Assembly (NCBI GenBank): GCA_052327205.1 | Contig: JBMRGM010000035.1 | Coordinates: forward strand, 56,916,001-56,980,000 | Direction of reading: 5' to 3' | From: Somniosus microcephalus | Taxonomy: Eukaryota | DNA: 64,000 nt | In this document: one piece after another, positions 3,990 through 61,263 of the stretch | Layout: each line of letters starts with the position of its first letter | Position numbering within the stretch: position 1 is the first letter of the stretch | Translations under genes and position numbers: made by a program | Notes under the pieces: generated by a model | Told to the model about the DNA's origin: nothing | The model's database searches: none | What the model saw: the letters and a program-made list of their open reading frames with translations, nothing else

Positions 3990-5570
3990 AGAAACATAGA
4001 AGATAGGAGCAGGTAGGCCATTCGGCCCCTCGAGCCTGCTCCGCCATTCAATGAGATCATGGCTGATCATCCAAAATCAGTACACTGTCCCTGCCTTCTC
4101 CCCATATCCCTTGATCCTTTTAGCCTTAAGAAATATATCTAAATCCTTCTTGAATATATTTAATGAATTGGCCTCAACTGCCTTCTGTGGTAGAGAATTC
4201 CACAGGTTCACCACTCTCTGGGTGAAGAAATTCCTCCTCATCTCTGTCCTAAATTGTTTACCCCTTATCCTTAGACTGTGACCCCTGGTTCTGGACTCGC
4301 CCGCCATCGGGAACATCCTTCCTGCCTCTAGTCTGTTAGAATTTTATAAGTTTCAATGAGATCCCCTCTCATTCTTCTAAACTCTAGCGAGTATAAACCC
4401 AATCGAACCAATCTCTCCTCATACGTCATTCCTGTCATCCCAGGTATCAGTCTGGTGAATCTTCGCTGCACTCCCTCAATGGCAAGAACATCCTTCCTCA
4501 GATAAGTCGACCAAAACTGCAGAAAATACTCAAGGTGTGGTCTCACCAAGGCCCTGTACAACTGCAGCAAGACATCGTTTTTCCTGTACTCGAATCCTCT
4601 CGCTACGAAGGCCAACATACCATTTTCCTTCTTAACCGCCTGCTGCACCTGCATGCTTACCTTCAGCGACTGGTGCACAAGGACATCCAGGTCTCGTTGC
4701 ACATCCCCTTCTCCCAATCTATTGCCGTTCAGATAATAATCTGCCTTCCTGTTTTTGCCACCATAGTGGATAACCTCGCAATTATCCACATTATACTGCA
4801 TCTGCCATACATCTGCCCAATCACCCAACCTGTCCAAATCGTACTGGAGTTTCTCAGCATCCTCCTCACAGCAGACACGCCCACCCAGCTTTGTGTCATC
4901 TGCAAACTTGGAGATATTACATCTAGTTCCCTCGACCAGATCATTAATATATATTGTGAATAGCTGGGGTCCTAGCACTGATCCCTGCGGTACCCCACTA
5001 GTCACTGCCTGGCACTCGGAAGAAGAGACGTTTATTCCAACTCTTTGCCTCCTGTCTGCCAACCAGTTCTCTATCCAAGTCAGTACCTTGCCCCCAATTC
5101 CATGTGCTTTAACTTTACACGCTAATCTCTTATGACAGACCTTATCGAAAGCTTTCTGAAAGTCCAAATACACCACATCCATTGGTTCTCCCTTATCTAC
5201 TCTACCAGTTTCATCATGGAAAAATTCCAGATTAGTCAATCACGATGAACCTTTTGTAAATTCATGTTGACTTTGTCCGATCCCATCACTGTTTTCCAAG
5301 TGCTCTGCTATTACGTCTTTTATAATGGACTCTAGCAGTTTCCCCACTACCGATGTCAGGCTGACCGGTCTATAATTCCCCGTTTTCTATCTACCACCTT
5401 TTTTGAATAGTGGGGTAAAATTAGCTACCCTCCAATGCATGGGAACTGTTCCAGAATCTATAGAATTTTGGAAGATGACCAGCAAAGCATCTACTATTTC
5501 TAGCACCACTTCCTTAAGTACCCTAGGATGTAGATTATCAGGCCCTGGGGATTTATCGGATTTCAATCCC
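3990..5570 (-). mobile_element. CR1 LINE, 5'-truncated (RT domain and 3' tail)
   Basis: ORFs 4328-5239 (DFQKAFDKV, PQGSVLGP, FADD) and 4077-4316; CTATGTTTC-type tail at about 3990. Confidence 0.95.
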
Positions 5571-20192: not shown

Positions 20193-20241
20193 TCCCAATT
20201 ACGATTAGCAGTGACGTCAGATGCTTTATCCATTAGGCCAA
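20193..20241 (-). tRNA. tRNA-Arg(NCG) 5' half plus intron remnant
   Basis: Reverse complement TGGCCTAATGGATAAAGCATCTGACGTCAC TGCTAATCGTAATTGGG; paralog of 48134-48184. Confidence 0.65.
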
Positions 20242-23299: not shown

Positions 23300-23554
23300 T
23301 AATGACCAGATTATCTGGGGTTTTTTTGTCTTTCGTTGAGAGATAAATAATGGGCAATACACTGGTGAGAAATCCTCGTTCTTTTCAAAATAGTGCCATG
23401 GTATCTGAGGCCTCGGTGTTACGTCTTTTCAGAAAGACGGTACCGTCGTCAGTGCAGCACCCCCTCAGTACTGCACTTGAGTATCAGCCTGGATTATGTG
23501 CTCAAGTCTCTGGAGTGGGGCTTGAGTTTGCTGCCGCTGAGCCACGGCTGACAC
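23300..23554 (-). mobile_element. SacSINE1-like remnant (duplicated at 27283-27533)
   Basis: CAGTGCAGCACCCCCTCAGTACTGCAC...CTCAAGTCTCTGGAGTGGG...CTGAGCCACGGCTGACAC. Confidence 0.8.
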
Positions 23555-23659
23555 CTAAACTCAGTTCATTCGGCTCGAGTGAAATGGCGAAGACAAATAA
23601 ATGACAGTGGACTAAATCTTCAACTTGGGGCACAAGAATAAACCACATCATTGTGTAAC

Positions 23660-24406
23660 TGTTTAAAAGGGATGAGCTGTCATTCCCTGGTCATTCTGTG
23701 TCTTTTTAAAAGTGATGTTCGGCCAGTTCCGGATCATTCTCTGTCTGTTTAAAAGGGATGTACTGTCAGACCCGGATCGTTCTGTATCTGTTTAAAAGGG
23801 ATGTGCTGTCAGTCCCGGATCATTCTGTGTCTGTTTAAAAGGGATGTTCTGTCAGACCCGGATCATTCTCTGTCTGTTTAAAAGGGATGTACTGTCAGAC
23901 CCGGATCGTTCTGTATCTGTTTAAAAGGGATGTGCTGTCAGTCCCGGATCATTCTGTGTCTGTTTAAAAGGGATGTTCTGTCAGACCCGGATCATTCTGT
24001 ATCTGTTTAAAAGGGATGTGCTGTCAGTCCCGGATCATTCTGTGTCTGTTTAAAAGGGATGTTCTGCCAGTCCCGGATCATTCTGTGCCTGTTTAAAAGG
24101 GATGTACTGTCAGACCCGGATCATTCTGTATCTGTTTAAAAGGAATGTACTATCAGTCCCGGATCATTCTGTGTCTGTTTAAAAGGGATGTTCTGCCAGT
24201 CCCGGATCATTCTGTATCTGTTTAAAAGGGATGTGATGTCATTCCTTGATCGTCCTGTTTCTGTTTAAAAGGGATGTGCTGTCACTCTCATATCATTCTA
24301 TTTCTGTATAAAAGGGATGTGCTGTCAGTCCCGGATCATTCTGTGTCTGTTTAAAAGGGATGTGCTGTCATTCCTAGATCATTTTTTAACTGTTTAAAGG
24401 GGATGT
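23660..24406. repeat. 43-bp minisatellite, about 17 units
   Basis: Unit CTGTTTAAAAGGGATGTGCTGTCAGTCCCGGATCATTCTGTGT; period 43 (TTTAAAA at 23791 and 23834). Confidence 0.95.
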
Positions 24407-26105
24407 TTAAACAAGGAAGGAGGTTGTATGATGCATATCAGGCGAATTCTTCAAGGCAGAATCAGACCAAATATAATAAGTTGAGAGGGGATGTGAAGAT
24501 ACAAATAAGATTGGCAAAGAGAGTATGAGAGTAGAATGGCGCGAAACATAAAATGGAACCCAAAAATCTACTACTGGCATGTAAACAGTAAGCGGGTAGT
24601 AAGAGGCGGGGTGCGGCCTATTAGAGACAAAAAAGGCTTGCCATAATTTTCCAGTCTTCCCTAGATGCGGGGGAGGTGCTTGAGGACGTGAAAGTGGCAA
24701 ATGTGACACCATGTTTCAAGAAAGGCTGTAAGGATGATCCAATCACTAGAGGCCGGTTAGTTTAACATCAGTGGTGGCTAAAGTTTTAGAAACAATAATG
24801 AAGGAAAAATTAACGGGCACTTGGAGAAGTTTAAGCTAATTAAGTAGCGCCAGCACGGATGTGTAAAATGCAGAACGTGCTTGGCTAATCTAATTGAATT
24901 TTTTGATGAAGTAACAGAGAAAATTGATGAAGTGAGTGCAATGGATGTTGGCTACATGGATTTTCGGAAGGCGTTTGACAAAGTACCACAGAAAAGGCTG
25001 GTTAACAAAATTGAGGTTCATGGAATAGGTGAGTCAGTGGCAGCTTGGATAATGAATTGGCTTAAGGACAGAAAACAGCGAATTGTGGTAAATGGCTGTA
25101 CTTCAGATTGGAGGATGGTAGACAGTGGTTTTCCACAAGGGTCAGTGCTGGGGCCACTGCCTTTTTTAAATGTATATAAATGACCTGTATATTGGAATAC
25201 AGAGTAGAGTTTCTAAATTCGCCGATGACTCCAAACCTGGGGGTGTGGCACACAGTGATGATGATGCCAATCGACTACAACAGGACATAAAAAGGCTAGC
25301 AGAACGGGCAGACAAGTTGCAGATGGGATTTAATACAGAGAATTGTGAGGTGATGCATTTTGGCAGGACGAACAGGGAGAGGTAATATACACTTAAAGGC
25401 ACAGTTTTAAATAGTGTGCAGGGACAGAGAGACCTGGGAGTTAATGTACATAGGTCCCTAGATATGGCAGGACATATTGAGAGAATGGTTAACAAAGCAT
25501 TTGTGATCTTGGGCTTTATATATAGAGGTATTGAGTACAAAAGTAGAGAAGTTATGCTGAGTCTTTATAGAGCGCTGGCTAGGCCACAACTGGAGTATTG
25601 CATCTCATCTGGTCACCACACTTTAGGAAGGATGTGAAGGCCCTTGAGAGGGTGCAGAGGAGTTTTACCAGAATGGTTCCGGGGAAGGGGGGTCTTAGCT
25701 ACAAGGACAGGTGGGAGAAGCTGGATGTGTTTTCATTAGAGTAAAGGAGGTTGAGGAGTGATTTGATAGAAGTGTACAAGATAATGACGGGTTTCGATAG
25801 GCGAGACCGGGAACGGCTTTTCCCACTAGTTGATGGTACAAGGACTAGGGGATTTAAGATTATAGGCAAAAGATACAGGGGGGTGTGAAGAAACAAAGTT
25901 ACACACTGGTGATGACCTGCAATTCACTGTCGTTGGAAGTGGTGGAATCAGAGACACTCAATGTTTTCAAGGGGAGACTGGATCGGCATTTGAGAGAAAT
26001 AAACTTGCAGAAATACGGCGATAGTGCCAGGGAATGGCACTGACTTGATTGCACTACAGAGAACTGGCACCGGCTCGAATTACCTCCGTCTGTGCGATTA
26101 TGACC
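24407..26105 (+). mobile_element. CR1 LINE, 5'-truncated, degenerate
   Basis: ORFs 24881-25183 (DFRKAFDKV, PQGSVLGP), 25170-25385 (FADD) and 25416-25637 (RPQLEYC). Confidence 0.9.
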
Positions 26106-26207
26106 CTATGATTAAATCGGGTGAGTGCACAGTCACGGATCATCAATTGTATAAGTCTTTTTAACAGGAGTGCGAAATTAGCTGTGATGACCCCGTTGTT
26201 AAGGTTG

Positions 26208-26299
26208 GGGTTCAGGCCGGGATTTGAATACGGGATCTCTCGCATTTTTTAAGCAGCGAAATTTCCTGAACGAGAATCAGACCTCTAGACCAACCAACC
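26208..26299 (-). tRNA. tRNA-Pro(AGG) pseudogene with 19-nt intron
   Basis: Reverse complement GGTTGGTTGGTCTAGAGGTCTGATTCTCGT TC AGG A [AATTTCGCTGCTTAAAAAA] T GCGAGAGATCCCGTATTCAAATCCCGGCCTGAACCC. Confidence 0.85.
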
Positions 26300-26466: not shown

Positions 26467-26555
26467 GGTCACGTGGCCAAATGGATAAGGGGTTTGACTG
26501 CGGTGCGGATCGTTCAGTTAGCAGATAATTGCAGATTCGAGTCCTACCGCGGTCG
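26467..26555 (+). tRNA. tRNA-Arg (TCG/CCG-type body, anticodon now GCG) with 16-nt intron
   Basis: GGTCACGTGGCCAAATGGATAAGGGGTTTGA CT GCG G [TGCGGATCGTTCAGTT] A GCAGATAATTGCAGATTCGAGTCCTACCGCGGTCG; length 89 = 73+16. Confidence 0.85.
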
Positions 26556-26749
26556 TTTAAATAACTAGGCGAAACTTTTTCTTCACTGTTCTGAATCTGA
26601 CAGCCCCTCACCTGAAGATAACGGAAGGCCTTTTGCTTATATGAGCTGATTGTACGTTTTCAACATTGTAGGTCTGTGTGCACGGGAAGGACAAGCGGTT
26701 AAGGGGACTTTCTTTCAGAGTGCTTCTGCTTAGATGCAAATTGCAGGAA

Positions 26750-26873
26750 ATAGAAACATAGAAGATAGGAGCAGGAGTAGGCCATTCGGCCGCTCGAGCC
26801 TGTTCCGCCATTTAATCAGATCATGGCTGATCATCCAAATTCAGTACCATGTCCTCGCTTTCTCCCCATACCC
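26750..26873 (-). mobile_element. CR1 3' tail fragment
   Basis: TAGAAACATAGAAGATAGGAGCAGGAGTAGGCCATTCGG, same subfamily as the copies at 3990 and 34363. Confidence 0.85.
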
Positions 26874-28524: not shown

Positions 28525-28621
28525 TACTCTAGGTGAAGCTCGAACTCACAGCCTCGACATATCTCGTAACCTGGCACTGTTACATAAATACCGCGTAGCT
28601 AACCGGTTGCGCCACTAGAGC
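28525..28621 (-). tRNA. tRNA-Ile(TAT) with intron, degenerate
   Basis: Reverse complement GCTCTAGTGGCGCAACCGGTTAGCTACGCGGTATTTATG[TAACAGTGCCAGGTTACGAGAT]ATGTCGAGGCTGTGAGTTCGAGCTTCACCTAGAGTA; an intron is normal for vertebrate Ile-TAT. Confidence 0.9.
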
Positions 28622-30082: not shown

Positions 30083-30614
30083 TCTTTTTAACGTCGACTT
30101 CTAACTTTGGACTTGCGCTCAAAAGTTGTTCTAATCCGCCTAAGAAATGATTGGTCAGGACCAAAATCATTCTCCATCAATCTCCAGCGGCTTAGGAGGA
30201 AGGTCAATGCAAACTGTCATGCAAATATCATGGCTTTAAAGACAAACAATTAAAGTATTTTTTATCAAACAATCCCCGGTGATGGTTATAAGTATATTTG
30301 TGTGTGTCCATAATAGGTACGAACGTATTTGTGAGTTGATGTTGTGTTAGATGTAAATGCATTTGCACTTCTGTTGGTTACAAATATGTTTAGATGTATC
30401 TGCAATATTTATTATTGTATTGAGTGGGGGAATCTGTGTCAGTTATAGATGTATTTCTGAGCGCTTCAAATATCCAGTCCGGCCCCATTCTACCTTCTCA
30501 TTGCCCCCACGTGGGACACGGCAGACCATCTGTTACATTCGGATTCAACTTTTGCTTTTATTGACACTTAAAAAATGTGAGGTTCAGAAAGTAATAAATC
30601 TGCATCCATCAGCC

Positions 30615-31200
30615 TCTCTGATACCTCTTGAGCGTCCCTTACTCTGTCTGATTGGCCCTGAGCGTCCCTTACCCGCTCCAGAACCTCTTGAGCATCCCTT
30701 ACACTGTCTGGTACATTCGGAGGGTCCCTTACCCTGTCTGGTAAATCGGGAGCTTCCCTCGCCCTTTCTGAAACATCCGGAGCATCCCTTACACTGTCTG
30801 GTACATCGGGAGCTTACATTACCCAGTTTGGTACATCCGGAGCGTGTCTTACCCTATCCGATGCACCCGGAGCATCCCTTACCCTGTCTGATACATCCGG
30901 AGCGGCTCTTACCCTGTGAGATATATCCGGAGTGACCCTTACACTGTCTGGCAAAACAGGAACGTTCCTTACCATGTATGGCAAATTCGGAGCGTACCTG
31001 AAACAGTCTGGTACATCCGGAGCGTCCCTTACACTGTCTGCTACATCCGGAGTGTCCCTTGCCCTGTCTAGTACAACAGAAGCGTCCCTTACACTGTGGG
31101 GTAAATCCAGAGCGTCCCTTAGACAGTTTGGTATATCCGGAGCGTCCCTTCCCCTGTTTATTACATCCGGAGCGTCCCCTACTCTCCTTGATAAATCCTG
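30615..31200. repeat. 30-bp minisatellite, about 19 units
   Basis: Unit CCGGAGCGTCCCTTACACTGTCTGGTACAT. Confidence 0.92.
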
Positions 31201-31657
31201 AGCCACCATTTTAATTTTTGATACCAAGTTTGCCAAAATTGCACATTTCACCCTTCATCCGCAGCTATGTAGCGCATCCCGTCGCTCACGCTCATCAACT
31301 GTTAAGGAAAAGCGGCAACTACCAGGTGAACAATCCCAGTTGTTCAGTTAGCCTCCCCAGTGCACTTCATTTCCCAAGGAATGTTCTTGTGCAATCGGGC
31401 TGCTTTGGTTCCAAAGGCCGGCCCTGCTGTCGCAGAGCTTGTCTGTCGAGAGGTCCCGCTGGTCTAAATCAATCGACTGCTTTCAATGCACCAACTCAGA
31501 TTGGGGAGAATGGCACATGTGCCCCAGGAACAGCGCTGGGAGCAGAGCATATTTACCGGTTTAAGTAGGTGAAAGTGAATGTTAGCAGGAAAGTTACAAT
31601 GACATTGAAGGAGGAAAGTAAAGGAGGGCTATTGATTGTGGAAGGAAGAAGAATCTG

Positions 31658-34362: not shown

Positions 34363-36815
34363 ATAGAAACTTAGAAGATAGGAGCAGGAGTAGGCCATTC
34401 TGCCCCTCGAGCCTGCTCCACCATTCAGTACGATCATGGCTGATCATCCAAAATCAGTACCCGGTCCCTGCTTTCTCCCCATACCCCTTGATCCTTTTTG
34501 CCTCAAGAAATATATCCAACTCCTTCTTGAATATATTTATTGAATTGGCCTCTACTGCCTTCTGTGGCAGAGAATTCCACAGGTTCACCAATTTCTGGGT
34601 GAAGAAATTCCTCCTCATTTCTGTCCTAAATGGCTTACCCTTTATCCTTAGACTGTGACCCCTGGTTCTGGACTCCCCGACCATCGGGAACATCCTTCCT
34701 GTATCTAGTCTGTCCAGTCCTGTCAGAATTTTATAAGTTTCAATGCGATCCCCTCTCATTCTTCTAAACTCCAGCGAGTATAAGCCCAATCGACCCAATC
34801 TCTCCTCATACGTCATTCCTGCCATCCCAGGTATCAGCCTGGTGAAACTTCGCTGAACTCCTTCCATGGCAAGAACATCCTTCCTCAGACAAGGCGACTA
34901 AAACTGCACACATTACTCAAGATGTGGTCTCATCAAGGCCCTGTACAACTGCAGCAAGATATCTTTGTTCCTGTACTCACACCCTCTCGCTACGAAGGCC
35001 AACATACCATTTGCCTTCTTAACTGCCTGCTGCACCTGCATGCTTAACTTCAGCGATTGGTGCACAAGGACACCCAGGTCTCGTTGCACTTCCCTTCTCC
35101 CAATCTATTGCCATTTAGATAATAATCTGCCTTCCTGTTTTTGCCACCAAAGTGGATAACCTCGAATTTATCCACGATATATTGCATCTACCATGCTTCT
35201 GCCCAATCACCCAACCTGTCCAAATGACCTGTAGTTTCTCGGCATCCTCCTCACAGCACACACGCACACCCAGCTTTGTGCCATCTGCAAATTTGGAGAT
35301 ATTACATCCAATTCCCTTGCCTAGATCAGTAATATATATTGTGGATAGCTGGGGTCCAAGGGCTGATCCCTTCAGTACCCCACTAGTCACTGCCTGCCAC
35401 TCGGAAAAAGACCCGTTTATTCCAACTCTTTGCATTCTGTCTGTCAACCAGTTCTCTATCCAAGTCAATACCTTGCCCCAAATCCCATGAGCCTTAAGTT
35501 TACATGCTAATCTCTTATACGGGGCCTTATCGAAAGCCTTCTGAAAGTCCAAATACACCACATCCTCTGGTTCTCCCTGATCTATTTTACCAGTTACATC
35601 CTCAAAAAATTCCAGTGGATTAGTCAAGCACGATTTAGCTTTTGTAAATCCATGTTGACTTTGTCCGATCGTGCCACTGTTTGCCAAGTGCTCTGCTATT
35701 ACATCTTTTATAATGGACTCTACCATTTTCCCCACTACCGATGTCAGGCTTACCAGTCTGTAATACTCCGTTTGCTCTCTACCACCTTTTTAAAATAGTG
35801 GGGTAACATTAGTTACCCTCCAATTCATGGGTACTGTTCCAGATTCCATCGAATGTTGGAAGATGATCAGCAATGCATCTACTATTTCTAGGGCCACTTC
35901 CTTAAGTACCCTAGGATGTAGATTATCAGGCCCTGGGGATTTAGCGGACTTCAATCCCATCAATTTCCCTAACACCATTTCCCTACAAATACTGATTTCT
36001 TTCAGTTCCTCCCTTTCATCAGACCCTATGTTACCCAGCATCTCTGGGGGGTTATTTGTGTCCTCCTTTGTGAAGACAGAACCAAAATATGTATTTAATT
36101 GGTCAGCCATTTCTTTGTTCCCCATTATAAATTCCCCTGACTCTGACTGCAAGTGTCCTACGCTTGACTTCACCAAGCTTTTTCTCTTCACATATCTATA
36201 AAATCTTTTACAGTCAGTTTTTATGTTCCCTGAAAGCTTACTCTCATATTCTATTTTCCCCTTCTTAATTAATCCCTTTGTCGTCCTTTGTTGAATCCTA
36301 AACTGCACCCAATCCTCAGGTTTACTGCTTTTTCTGGCCAATTTATATGTCCTCTCCTTGGATCTTATGCTATCCCTAATTTCCATTGTTAGCCACGGTA
36401 GAATCAACTTTTTTGTTTTTTTTTTATGCCAAACTGGGACGAACAAATTCTGTAGTTCATCCATGCCGTCTTTGAATGTTTGCCATTGCATATCCACCGT
36501 CAACCCTTTGAGTGACATTCCCCAATCAATCCTACCCAACTCGTGCCTCAGACTATCATATTATGATCGCTCTGACCCAAGGGGCCTCGTAAAACAAGAT
36601 TGCTAATTAATCCTTTCTCATTACATAATACCCAGCCTAAGATGGCCTGATCTCTTGTTGATTCCTCGACTTACAGGTCCAGTAAACCATCCCGTAAACA
36701 CTCCAGGAATTCCTCCTCCACAGTATTGTTACTAATTTGGTTAGCCAAATCTATATGTAGATTGAAGTCACCCATCCTGACTGCTGTGCCCTTATTGCAC
36801 GCTTCTCTAATTTCC
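34363..36815 (-). mobile_element. CR1 LINE, 5'-truncated, same subfamily as 3990-5570
   Basis: ORFs 35790-36539, 35115-35735 and 34454-34867 with CR1 linker, RT and C-terminal motifs. Confidence 0.95.
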
Positions 36816-56740: not shown

Positions 56741-59700
56741 ATGAAGATAACCATAGCCAGCCTCAACGTCAACGGCAGCAGGGAAGCTAGCCGCAGATTT
56801 AATAACTTTTCGGTCCTTCGGGACGGGAAGTATGCGGTGTGCTTCCTGCAAGAAACCCACACCGTTCCGGGAGATGAGGCCACGTGGCTCCTGGAGTGGC
56901 AAGGAGGGGTCAACATGAGTCACCTCTCCAATGTTTCCAGTGGTGTGGCTATCTTGTTGGCCCCGCATTTTCAGCCGGAGATCTTGGTGGTCAAGGAGCT
57001 CGTGCCGGGCCGCTTGCTCCAGGTCACTGTTCGCCTGGGGGGCGTGCCGTTCCATCTAGTGAACGTGTACGCCCCTCGGGCTGGTGCGCAGCAAGCGCGC
57101 TTCTTTGAAGAAGTGTCCACTCTTTTGGGCTCCATCGACGCGGGCGAGTGCGTCATCCTCGGGGGGGATTTTAATTGTACCCTCGAGGCGAGGGACCGCA
57201 CGGGTGCCCAGCCGTGCCCGGCGTCGGTGGGGAAGTTGAGGGACCTGGTCGGGTCCCTCGACTTGGCGGACGTCTGGCGTAATCTCCATCCCGACTCCAG
57301 CGCCTTCACCTTTGTGAGGTCTGGGGGAGGAGCGTCCAGGATCGACCGCCTCTACATTTCCCGGGCATACGTCTCCTGCGTTCCGGCGGCTTCCGTGCGG
57401 CCGGTGCCATGCACGGACCACCACCTGGTGTGGGCGGAGCTCGTGCCGCCGCGCGCCGGGGTGGGGTCCGCGTACTGGCACTTTAACAACCTGCTGCTGG
57501 AGGACGCGCGGTTCCGGGATTCGTTCGGTCGGTTCTGGGCCGGCTGGAGAAGGAAGCAGGGGGGCTTCCCCTCCTTGAGGCTATGGTGGGATGTGGGCAA
57601 GGCTCACATCCGTCTCTTCTGTCAGGAGTACGCAAAGGGGTCGACCAAGAGGCGGGAGGCCCGGGTCGGGCAGTTGGAGAAGGAGGTGCTCGACCTGGAG
57701 TCCCGTCTCGGTCAAGTCGCCGAGGACCCGGCCCTGCGGCTGGCGTACGAAGAGAAGAAGGGCGCGCTGGAGGACCTGCAGCTCGTCGGGTCCCGAGGTG
57801 CGTACGTGAGGTCGCGGATCCAGTTCCTGCGGGACCTGGACCGCGGCTCCCCCTTCTTCTACTCGCTGGAAAAAAGATGGGGGGTCCGTAAGCAGCTTTT
57901 GGAGCTGCTGGCCGACGACGGATCTCCGGTCTCGGATCCGGAGGGAATCCGCGCGGAGACCCGCGCCTATTACGGGGCTCTGTTCTCTCCGGATCCGTCC
58001 AGCGAGGACGCGCGCAGAGTTTTGTGGGAGGACCTGCCGAAGGTCGGCCTGGAGGGAGCCGAAAAATTGGACGCTCCTCTGAGTTTGGAGGAGCTGTCCG
58101 GTGCCCTCCGCCAGCTCTCTAGGGGGAAGTCCCCGGGGCTGGACGGGCTGACCGTGGAGTTCCACAGGGCGTTCTGGGGCGTCCTGGGGGGCGACTACGT
58201 GCAGGTCCTGGGGGAATGTTTGGCGACCGGGGAGATGCCCCTCTCGTGGCGCAGGGCGGTGATCGTCCTGCTGCTGAAGAGGGGTGATCTCCGCCACCTT
58301 AAGAACTGGCGCCCGGTCTCCCTCCTCAGCACGGATTACAAAATCTTTGCCAGGGCCATGTCCGTTCGCCTTGGCACCGTGCTGGCCCACATGATCCATC
58401 CCGACCAGTCCTACACGGTCCCGGGCCGGACCATTCACGATAACATCCATCTGGTCCGGGACCTGGTCCACCATTCCCAGAGGGCTGGTCTGTCGGTCGC
58501 CTTCCTTTCCCTGGATCAGGAGAAGGCATTCGACAGGGTGGATCACGAGTATCTTTTCGGGACTCTGCGCGCTTTCGGTTTCGGGACGCATTTCGTCGCC
58601 TGGATCTGACTTCTGTATGCTGCCGCGGAGTGTCTGATTAAAGTTAACGGGTCCTTGGCGGCGCCCCTTCGCTTCGGGAGGGGGGTGCATCAGGGATGCC
58701 CCATGTCCGGCCAGTTATATGCCATTTGTGTGGAGCCTTTCCTGCGCCTCATGCGGAAGAGGTTGGCGGGATTGGCTCTGCAAGGGCCGGGCGTGGAGGT
58801 GGTCCTCTTGGCTTACGCCGATGACGTGCTCCTCATGGTCACGGATCCCTTTGACTTGCGGAGGATGCGGGAATGCCAGCAGATTTACTCGGACGCATCC
58901 TCCGCCAGGATCAACTGGGGGAAATGTTCTGGACTCCTGGTGGGTCAGTGGCAGGTGGACTCTCTGCCGGAGGAGTTCAGGCCCTTCGCCTGGAGTACAA
59001 CGCACCTCCTCTACTTGGGAGTCTACCTCAGCCCGGCCGAGGATGCCTGGCCGGCGAACTGGCACGAGCTGGAGGCCAAAGTCACCGCTCGCTTAGGACG
59101 CTGGACAGGATTGCTCCGAGTGTTGTCCTACAGGGGTTGGGCGTTGGTCATAAACCAACTGGTGGCCGCCATGGTGTGGTACCGGTTGGTTACTCTGATC
59201 CCCCCCCCTGCGTTTGTCGCCAAGATACAGAAGAAGCTCATCGACTTCTTCTGGAACAACAGGATACACTGGGTCGCTGCCGCGGTTCTGAGTCTCCCGC
59301 TTAGGGAGGGCGGTCAGGCGTTGGTGTGCCTCCGCACCCAGGCTGCGACTTTCCGTCTTCAGACGCTGCAGAGATACCTGTACGTCGAGAATCCTCCAAG
59401 ATGGTGTGCGCTGGCGACATATTTTTTCCGCCAGCTGCACGGCCTCAATTACGACATGCAGCTCCTGTTTTTGGAGGCGAGCGGCAGGCGTGAGAGCCTA
59501 CGGGAGCTGCCTGTCTTTTACCAGGAACTACTATGGGTTTGGAATTACGTCGCCTCCAGGCAGAGCTCCCCCCCGTCAGGAGCGGCGGCTGTCCTCCGGG
59601 AGCCGCTGTTCAGGAATCCGCACCTCCACGTCCGCGAGTTCAGGTGGCTGGCGGAGCGCAGGGCTGTGCCTGGCAGGGTGACTAGAGTCGGGGACCTACT

Positions 59701-60640
59701 CGATGGCGGAGGAGCGGGCTGGATGGCGCCAGAGGAGCTGGCGCGACGCATGTCATGGGACGATGTCCGGCTCGCGGTCAATGCCATCGGGGCGGTGAAA
59801 GCGATGTTGCCCCCCGACGCCACAAGGTGTGTCGAGGCGGCTCGGGCACGTGGGGAGATCCCGTCCGAGCTTACTCCCGTTCGGGCGGAATTCCTTATCG
59901 GTGCCTTGCCCCGAAACTCCCCTCGGGGATCGGTGCTTCACAACTTGAGCCGTCTCGAGGAAATACCCTCCGTGCTTTTTCATTCTGCGCGGAGGGGTTT
60001 CTTGTACGGGCTGCTCTTGCACACCTTCCACTTTGCCATCTTCGCCTGCCATCCGGACACGCCGTGGCATGCCGTTTTACCTCAGGACGGAGACGGAGGT
60101 CCCCAATGGGGGGCTCTCTATGTGGGAGTCCTCCCTTGTTCTATCGGGGACTTGGCCTGGAGGTTGTTGCACAGAGCAGTTCCGTGCAATAGATTTTTAA
60201 ATAGGTTTACGGACTCCCAGACCGCCTGTTTGTTTTGCGGTCTGGAGGAGTCCGTAATTCATGTTTATGTTGAATGCGAGAGGTTGCAGCCCCTCTTCCA
60301 TTATTTAAGGGGGCTGCTCCTCAAGTTTTGGTTGCACTTCAGTCCCACGCTCCTGATCTATGGTCACCCTGTGCGGAGGGGAGCGGGCAGGTCAGAGGAC
60401 CTCCTCGTGGGTCTGCTCCTGGGCCTGGCAAAGATAACCATCAATTGGTCCAGGCAGCGGGCGGTTGAGGGGGTCGTCCGGCCAGATTGCCTCCCGCGCT
60501 TCCGCGGCCATGTTCGCGCCCGGGTGGCCCTGGAGATGGAGCACGCGGTCTCCACCGGCACGCTCGAGCAATTTCGTGACCGGTGGGCGCCGCGGGGACT
60601 GGAGTGCATAATCGGTCCAAATGACCAAATTTTAATTTGA
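56741..60640 (+). pseudogene. Tx1 ORF2 (APE endonuclease, RT, C-terminal Cys/His finger) with one premature stop
   Basis: SLNVNG, LQETH, GGDFN, SRIDR, TDH, LDQEKAFDRV, QGCPMS, YADD and CLFC...H...C; ORFs 56741-58609 and 58655-60640 share one frame, separated by TGA at 58607-58609 (likely CGA>TGA). Confidence 0.93.
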
Positions 60641-61033: not shown

Positions 61034-61188
61034 AAGGTTTTATGAAAGTATTCATGTGAATGAGGCGGAACAGTTGCCCGCTCCACTGTCCCGCTTTATT
61101 TTTGTGCATTTGTAGCTGTGCTTTTTCAACCTAATTGAAATGATTCAGAATTCGCTACCCAGGAAGCTCGAAGCTAAACACTACTGAT

Positions 61189-61263
61189 GGCGCGGTGGCC
61201 AAGTGGTAAGGCGTCGGTCTTATATGCCGAAGTATTCATGGGTTTGACCCCCATCGCGTTCCT
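61189..61263 (+). tRNA. tRNA-Thr(CGT)-derived pseudogene
   Basis: GGCGCGGTGGCCAAGTGGTAAGGCGTCGGTCT matches the Thr-CGT 5' half; anticodon decayed to TAT and B box to GGTTTGA. Confidence 0.85.

What the first reader, a model, noticed from the sequence alone, without database searches (positions are those of the whole stretch)
26467..26555. Intron in an Arg(TCG/CCG)-type tRNA, supported by two further half-copies
Seen: the body matches the Arg-TCG/CCG family (GGCCGCGTGGCCTAATGGATAAGG...GATTGCAGGTTCGAGTCCTGCCGCGGTCG), not Arg-TCT, yet it has a 16-nt insert TGCGGATCGTTCAGTT at 37/38. The half-genes at 48134-48184 (anticodon TCG) and 20193-20241 continue into a related sequence TGCTAATCGTAATT, so the insert is not a one-off. 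Inference: together with Pro, the intron repertoire extends to a second non-canonical isotype, which hints at intron spread within this cluster.
Basis: partly seen in the sequence, partly recalled or inferred. Interest (0 to 1): 0.7.

Follow-up and report, generated by a model that had tools for sequence, protein, structure and literature searches.

The report
Shark Arg-UCG and proline tRNA introns
The flagged gene is a broken copy, but it belongs to hundreds of arginine (UCG) and proline tRNA genes in this likely shark genome that carry a short insert at the classic tRNA-intron position, likely spliced out by the normal tRNA-splicing enzyme, in tRNA families not among those reviews list as having introns in humans.

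Summary
The 16-nt insert at 37/38 is real (26504-26519). The copy itself is a pseudogene: anticodon GCG, 11 of 73 changes, 6 of 21 stem pairs broken. Its family is the finding. Exact patterns give 262 intron-bearing Arg-TCG genes (645 with a looser pattern) against 1 intron-less gene, and 941 intron-bearing Pro genes (AGG, TGG, CGG) against 8. Arg-TCG introns sit in two clusters (C35, C42) whose introns differ at about half their positions and whose upstream flanks do not align, while the exons stay nearly identical; one C42 copy is exon-perfect. The base pair TSEN needs (N32 with intron position -3) holds in 18 of 19 intron families: G for Arg, A/G for Pro. The genome is a cartilaginous fish, probably a shark (inferred). 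Splicing is inferred, not observed. Copying of one intron between isotypes is not supported, and the two half-copies are duplicates of one truncated paralog. [quoted passage not shown] Verdict: new variant of a known kind.

The parts
26467..26555 (+). Decayed intron-bearing tRNA-Arg(TCG) gene (pseudogene; anticodon mutated to GCG)
   Evidence: 11 of 73 exon differences from intact L061, 6 of 21 stem pairs broken
26467..26503 (+). 5' exon (positions 1-37), anticodon at 26500-26502
26504..26519 (+). 16-nt intron at 37/38, related to the 17-18-nt introns of intact C35 copies; G kept at position -3
26520..26555 (+). 3' exon (positions 38-73), B-box damaged (G53A)
26207..26299 (-). Decayed intron-bearing tRNA-Pro gene, divergent partner in the same ~1.6-kb Pro/Arg/Ser unit (bounds approximate)
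   Evidence: sequence and ~76% BLAST match to intact unit L035
26891..26942 (+). 3' remnant of the unit's tRNA-Ser(GCT) gene (bounds approximate)
48134..48184 (-). Truncated Arg-TCG paralog (5' exon from about position 9, intron-like segment, a few 3' bases)
20193..20241 (-). Segmental duplicate of the truncated paralog at 48134-48184
   Evidence: 620 nt, 82% identity
46139..46227 (-). Decayed tRNA-Pro(TGG-type) gene with 16-nt insert at 37/38

Best explanation
The flagged gene is a decayed copy from a large family of tRNA-Arg(UCG) genes in this likely shark genome that, like its tRNA-Pro genes, carry a 15-21-nt insert between positions 37 and 38, which is likely an old intron removed by the ordinary TSEN endonuclease/RTCB ligase pathway. 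Shown: position, copy numbers, exon conservation across clusters with unrelated flanks, and the N32:intron(-3) pair. Inferred: RNA polymerase III transcribes the intact copies; the intron's 3' end pairs with loop bases 32-36; TSEN cuts by measuring from the mature body; RTCB joins the exons into a tRNA identical or nearly identical to that of the few intron-less genes. Copy number likely came from tandem and segmental amplification of whole Pro/Arg/Ser units on C35 and of larger units on C42. Most copies then drift, dead variants are amplified along with live ones, and selection on a working subset keeps the family sequence intact. The focal copy is likely one of the dead ones.
For: Arg-TCG: 262 with insert vs 1 without; a looser intron-less Arg-YCG pattern finds only 2 genes; a looser intron pattern finds 645. 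Pro: 941 vs 8, in all three isoacceptors and on at least 8 contigs. Second Arg-TCG intron family: 71 hits on C42 and 1 on C37. Of 17 examined, all have 0-4 exon differences from the intron-less gene, 14 keep all 21 stem pairs, and L219 is exon-perfect and followed by T-runs. One C42 copy (L210) against four C35 families: introns differ at 8-11 of 17-18 positions and upstream flanks at about 50% (shuffled baseline 46-47%). Pro-AGG vs Pro-TGG families: exons differ only at the wobble base, introns by 39%, flanks by 15-18%. Intron -3 base is G in 235 of 247 Arg copies (C32) and A in 232 of 234 Pro copies (U32). By family the pair holds in 18 of 19 vs 8.1 +/- 2.0 in shuffles, and loop-intron pairs number 70 vs 41.5 +/- 4.7. 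A 56-copy subfamily carries the compensatory change C4T+G69A. This pair is required for splicing in metazoan reporters (PMC6614914).
Against: No spliced or precursor RNA was observed. Within subfamilies, exon variation is about equal to flank variation (e.g. 0.015 vs 0.013, 0.018 vs 0.016), so single copies show no constraint. None of 247 sampled C35 Arg copies is exon-perfect, and 69 of 247 have 10 or more changes. Whole dead subfamilies are amplified (43 copies with 10 changes). Among C35 families, exon-versus-flank tests are mixed (p 0.001-1), and those families were picked for intact exons, which is circular. Both compensatory changes are CpG transitions, so they are likely by mutation alone. 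The 19 intron families are related, so the shuffle p-values (0.0002) overstate the case. 5 of 37 divergent Pro introns have T at -3 (my count). Energy folding does not give a clean cloverleaf for L219. One intact intron-less Arg-TCG gene exists and could supply the tRNA.
Confidence: 0.85

Rival explanations
1. The inserts are inert. All insert-bearing copies are unspliced pseudogenes or Pol III promoter/insulator repeats, and working tRNA-Arg(UCG) and tRNA-Pro come from the 1 and 8 intron-less genes.
For: Copies drift at flank rate within subfamilies and dead families amplify. Intact intron-less genes exist.
Against: Acceptor and anticodon stems, not only the A/B boxes, are conserved between clusters whose upstream flanks are saturated. 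The -3 base follows N32 across isotypes. 46 of 234 Pro copies are exon-perfect.
Confidence: 0.09
2. Origin by intron spread: one intron was copied from Arg-TCT or Pro into Arg-TCG by recombination inside the cluster. This is compatible with splicing and concerns only the origin.
For: Arg-TCT and Arg-TCG introns are of similar length, are T-rich at the start and often end in AGTY. Both isotypes occur on C35 and C42.
Against: Only 1 of 21 cross-isotype intron pairs scores p<0.05 against shuffles. The shared ends are explained by pairing with the same CUUC loop. The test is weak: most same-isotype pairs are not significant either.
Confidence: 0.15
3. The insert is a local duplication of the anticodon arm confined to pseudogenes.
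For: The focal insert contains CGGATC, which resembles the exon junction.
Against: CGGATC is in 2 of 30 close paralogs only. Intact genes carry unrelated intron starts, and an exon-perfect copy exists.
Confidence: 0.01
4. The copies are heads of a tRNA-derived SINE rather than genes.
For: tRNA-derived repeats are abundant in cartilaginous fish (over 9500 tRNA-Ala-like loci in elephant shark, PMC8450103).
Against: Copies sit at fixed places in tandem units with shared flanks on both sides, end at position 73 and are followed by T-runs. They are confined to clusters: no exact-pattern hit on C1-C34.
Confidence: 0.02

Closest known systems
Vertebrate TSEN-spliced tRNA introns (human Tyr-GUA, Ile-UAU, Arg-UCU, Leu-CAA; PMC10275265 section 11)
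   Same: Position 37/38, short length, N32:intron(-3) pair, intron sequences that vary among family members. This genome's Arg-TCT genes are of this kind (87 of 87 pattern hits with an intron).
   Different: Found in Arg-UCG and in all three Pro isoacceptors, which that review does not list for humans. Hundreds of copies in tandem units. Intron-less genes of the same mature sequence are a small minority.
[quoted passage not shown]
   Same: Same lineage (inferred), clustered and expanded tRNA loci, many tRNA-Sec copies. The Pro and Arg-TCG families probably account for much of that abundance (inference).
   Different: The main text names no isotypes and tests neither pairing nor selection. Its Figure 3A and supplements could not be seen and may list them.
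Lineage-specific intron gain or loss in yeast isodecoders (e.g. Lachancea thermotolerans Ala-UGC; PMC4090602 section 18)
   Same: An isodecoder has introns in one lineage and not in its relatives, with nearly unchanged mature sequence.
   Different: A vertebrate case. Intron-bearing and intron-less genes share an identical mature sequence within one genome, whereas that review expects mixed families to have different origins.

Membership tests
Eukaryotic (TSEN-type) tRNA intron | Insert lies one base 3' of the anticodon, between 37 and 38 | tested here: met
   against the genome's own intron-less genes L061 and L062
Eukaryotic (TSEN-type) tRNA intron | Short length without conserved terminal motif | tested here: met
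   16-20 nt (Arg), 15-21 nt (Pro)
Eukaryotic (TSEN-type) tRNA intron | A-I (proximal) pair between N32 and the third-last intron base | tested here: met
   235 of 247 Arg (G), 232 of 234 Pro (A), 18 of 19 families
Eukaryotic (TSEN-type) tRNA intron | Anticodon-intron helix extending that pair | tested here: inconclusive
   70 pairs vs 41.5 in shuffles over 19 families, but only 2-3 of 5 in the C35 Arg families; energy folding gives alternative structures
Eukaryotic (TSEN-type) tRNA intron | Intact mature domain with Pol III boxes and T-run terminator in at least some copies | tested here: met
   L219 exon-perfect; 14 of 17 C42/C37 copies with all 21 stem pairs; 46 of 234 Pro copies exon-perfect
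Eukaryotic (TSEN-type) tRNA intron | Removed from the transcript by TSEN and RTCB | not testable with these tools
   No small-RNA or tRNA-seq run was available; no biochemical test possible
Functional tRNA-Arg gene (the focal copy itself) | Intact cloverleaf, B-box and a used anticodon | tested here: not met
   6 of 21 pairs broken, G53A, anticodon GCG
tRNA-derived SINE | Dispersed copies with unrelated flanks and a shared 3' tail | tested here: not met
   Shared flanks on both sides, tandem units, confined to clusters

The most novel reading that the evidence does not exclude
The Pro (AGG, TGG, CGG) and Arg-UCG introns are ancient jawed-vertebrate or older features that cartilaginous fishes kept and amplified. 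The textbook four-family vertebrate repertoire would then be a reduced state, reached when intron-less copies like the 1 Arg-TCG and 8 Pro genes seen here replaced them, and most shark proline and CGA decoding would depend on TSEN and on intron-dependent anticodon modification.
Probability: 0.35. Interest if true: 0.72.

Novelty: new variant of a known kind. Interest (0 to 1): 0.56.

Why it matters
Reviews and experiments treat four isodecoder families as the vertebrate substrates of tRNA splicing. A vertebrate lineage in which Arg-UCG and all Pro isoacceptors are mostly intron-encoded adds four families. It also offers a natural experiment on the open question of why tRNA introns are gained, kept or lost: intron-bearing and intron-less genes with the same mature sequence coexist in one genome, so intron-dependent modification, expression and intron-circle formation can be compared directly. 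It names the likely content of the unexplained excess of intron-containing tRNA loci reported for sharks. The mechanism itself is the standard one.

Tried and rejected
Expression: no RNA holder listed for the intact unit. Two standard RNA-seq runs of a coded organism B laid on the window's copy had no depth over the gene; the tool drops human-like reads and such libraries lose tRNA, so this is no evidence either way. Splicing of intact copies therefore remains untested. Energy folding of precursors was uninformative (z -1.9 and -2.2). Intron-bearing Arg-CCG family: rejected, 1 decayed hit. ARAGORN's 83-nt 'Asn' and 'Lys' calls are Ser-GCT bodies with mutated anticodons, not further intron families. 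A survey for other unusual intron isotypes in 40 evenly spaced C35 blocks and about 35 blocks of C42/C43 found none: the Ser, His, Gly, Ile-AAT, Asn, Leu-AAG/TAG, Ala and Met genes seen were intron-less; this is a small sample of 6.4 Gb and most blocks held no tRNA. Cross-isotype intron homology: not detected. The atlas search gave only 'Chordata'. Earlier scan notes held nothing relevant. Nine literature searches found no paper naming Arg-UCG or Pro introns in a vertebrate; GtRNAdb, RefSeq annotations, subscription papers (e.g. Schmidt and Matera 2020) and bioRxiv supplements were not searchable and may list them.

Full report
Observation. Window 26467-26555 reads as a tRNA-Arg gene of the TCG body type with TGCGGATCGTTCAGTT inserted at 26504-26519, after position 37. 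Against the genome's own intact intron-less Arg-TCG gene (L061, contig C27) it differs at 11 of 73 positions, breaks 6 of 21 stem pairs, has G53A in the B-box and reads GCG at the anticodon. Rfam and default ARAGORN miss it. It lies in a ~76%-identical decayed copy of a 1.6-kb Pro/Arg/Ser unit. The two half-genes are real but are duplicates of one truncated paralog inside a 620-nt repeat.

Genome. The window is G000:C35:56916001-56980000 in a 6.45-Gb assembly. A CR1-type reverse transcriptase fragment in the window has its best named matches in cartilaginous fishes (Hypanus 74%, Leucoraja 77%, Mobula 78%, Callorhinchus 67-71%; listed turtle and bird proteins at most 56%; three bacteria-labelled records at 58-70% are probably contaminants). 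The tRNA-Sec model gives 36 matches over its cut-off among 53 scored, two of them at Ser arrays on C43; the Squalomix preprint describes many tRNA-Sec copies as typical of sharks (section 6). A shark is therefore likely; this is inference.

The family. The focal copy has at least 40 close paralogs (40 scored of 134 candidates). Among the 30 fetched, the anticodon is TCG in 26 and CGGATC occurs in 2, which disposes of the duplication idea. An exact exon-gap-exon pattern finds 262 Arg-TCG genes with an insert and the ungapped pattern 1. A looser intron-less Arg-YCG pattern finds 2 genes, one TCG and one CCG; a looser gapped TCG pattern finds 645, with no hit on C1-C34; gapped CCG finds 1 decayed copy. 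Pro gives 941 with insert and 8 without, covering AGG, TGG and CGG with many unrelated introns on C13, C17, C19, C22, C34, C35, C38 and C42; several of the dispersed ones are decayed. Arg-TCT, the known intron family, gives 87 of 87 with insert. Reversed control patterns gave 0 throughout. Pattern counts miss genes with changes inside the motifs.

Is the insert under selection to be spliced? In 94 blocks of C35 (54 chosen around known hits, 40 evenly spaced) all 247 Arg-TCG-like and all 234 Pro-like genes had an insert. 46 Pro copies but no Arg copy were exon-perfect, and 69 Arg copies had 10 or more changes. Within subfamilies exons vary as much as flanks, dead subfamilies are amplified, and exon-versus-flank tests among C35 Arg families are mixed and partly circular. 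C35 alone is therefore only suggestive, although a 56-copy subfamily carries C4T with G69A and a 48-copy group only A44C, both with all stems intact. The stronger evidence is a second cluster: 71 hits on C42 and 1 on C37 with a different 16-17-nt intron. Of 17 examined, all are within 4 changes of the intron-less gene, 14 keep all stems, and L219 is identical in all 73 exon positions and followed by T-runs. Comparing one C42 copy with four C35 families, introns differ at 8-11 of 17-18 positions, upstream flanks at about 50% (shuffled 46-47%) and downstream flanks at about 41% (no shuffle baseline). Pro-AGG and Pro-TGG families differ only at the wobble base in exons but by 39% in introns and 15-18% in flanks. 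Exons kept that long around a loop-disrupting insert imply a mature product, since unspliced precursors cannot work in translation (PMC10275265 section 11).

Splicing signature. The pair between N32 and the third-last intron base is conserved in eukaryotic pre-tRNAs (PMC10485636 passages) and needed for splicing in fly reporters (PMC6614914 passages). Here the -3 base is G in 235 of 247 Arg copies (C32) and A in 232 of 234 Pro copies (U32). Grouping distinct introns at 70% identity gives 19 Arg-TCG and Pro families; 18 form the pair against 8.1 +/- 2.0 in shuffles, and positions 32-36 form 70 pairs against 41.5 +/- 4.7. The families share ancestry, so these p-values are too small. 5 of 37 divergent Pro introns have T at -3. 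Energy folding was not informative.

Other samples. Six runs under three coded organism labels hold 0.24-0.68 of the words of an intact unit. Contigs from labels A and C cover the focal gene, read T at 26500 (TCG), and one contig of C spans 26480-26751 across the insert; no deletion of the insert appears among the rows shown (12 rows hidden). Whether the labels are different species is not known. RNA gave no usable result, so splicing is not observed.

Origin. Representative introns of Arg-TCG, Arg-TCT and Pro are no more alike than shuffles (1 of 21 cross-isotype pairs at p<0.05), but most same-isotype pairs also fail, so descent can be neither shown nor excluded. Presence in two clusters with saturated upstream flanks makes the Arg-TCG intron old. 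Gain in cartilaginous fishes and loss in bony vertebrates are both open.

Comparison with what is known. For humans the review names Tyr-GUA, Ile-UAU, Arg-UCU and Leu-CAA. A zebrafish study assays Arg-TCT, Leu-CAA and Ile-TAT as its intron-containing tRNAs (PMC13262943 passages), which is not a full list. Lineage-specific gain and loss is described for yeasts (PMC4090602, passages and sections 5 and 18 part 1). [quoted passage not shown] Passages of PMC13578239, PMC8450103, 10.1101/2024.01.30.575011 and PMC11408192 added nothing on vertebrate isotypes. Nine searches found no paper naming these families in a vertebrate; automated annotations probably record them (my expectation, not checked).

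Verdict. The focal gene is a pseudogene, and the family behind it is very probably a set of real TSEN introns in Arg-UCG and all Pro isoacceptors (0.85). The mechanism is standard and the repertoire is unusual for a vertebrate: new variant of a known kind, interest 0.56.

Noticed in passing
G000:C9:218.83-220.01 Mb (L225-L229): Tandem arrays of about 30 tRNA-Sec genes, plus a few on C28 and C18, matching the shark expansion reported in the Squalomix preprint.
   Followed up: no
L086:8336-8417: An otherwise intact-looking Ser-GCT body with anticodon GTT; similar 'Asn' and 'Lys' anticodon mutants of Ser bodies recur in the arrays. If expressed it could put serine at Asn codons (inference from recalled SerRS behaviour).
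   Followed up: no
L056:2918-3009: Decayed intron-bearing Arg-TCG copy with anticodon TCA, which ARAGORN calls SeC; a possible UGA reader only if still transcribed and spliced.
   Followed up: no
G000:C21:70391150 (L070) and C27:14397975 (L061): Only one Arg-CCG gene and one intron-less Arg-TCG gene match the patterns used, both outside the big clusters.
   Followed up: partly
G000:C35 59-62 Mb (L017-L025): The decayed Arg-TCG subfamily recurs at about 65-kb spacing: a higher-order segmental repeat that amplifies dead tRNA units.
   Followed up: no
window 54526-60640 (+): GC-rich, near full-length non-LTR retrotransposon with a first ORF and an endonuclease/reverse-transcriptase ORF broken by a stop; Tx1/L1-like by recall.
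   Followed up: no
window 4328-5239 and 35115-36560 (-): CR1-type LINE fragments whose best named matches are from cartilaginous fishes.
   Followed up: partly
window 28525-28621 (-): Decayed tRNA-Ile(TAT) gene with an insert at the usual intron position.
   Followed up: no
window 23518-24505 and 30576-31265: Minisatellites of 43 nt and 30 nt; the 43-nt one matches spacer DNA of the tRNA unit.
   Followed up: no
window 61188-61262 (+): ARAGORN calls it Ile-TAT without intron, but the body does not resemble the Ile-TAT gene at 28525; probably another isotype with a mutated anticodon.
   Followed up: no
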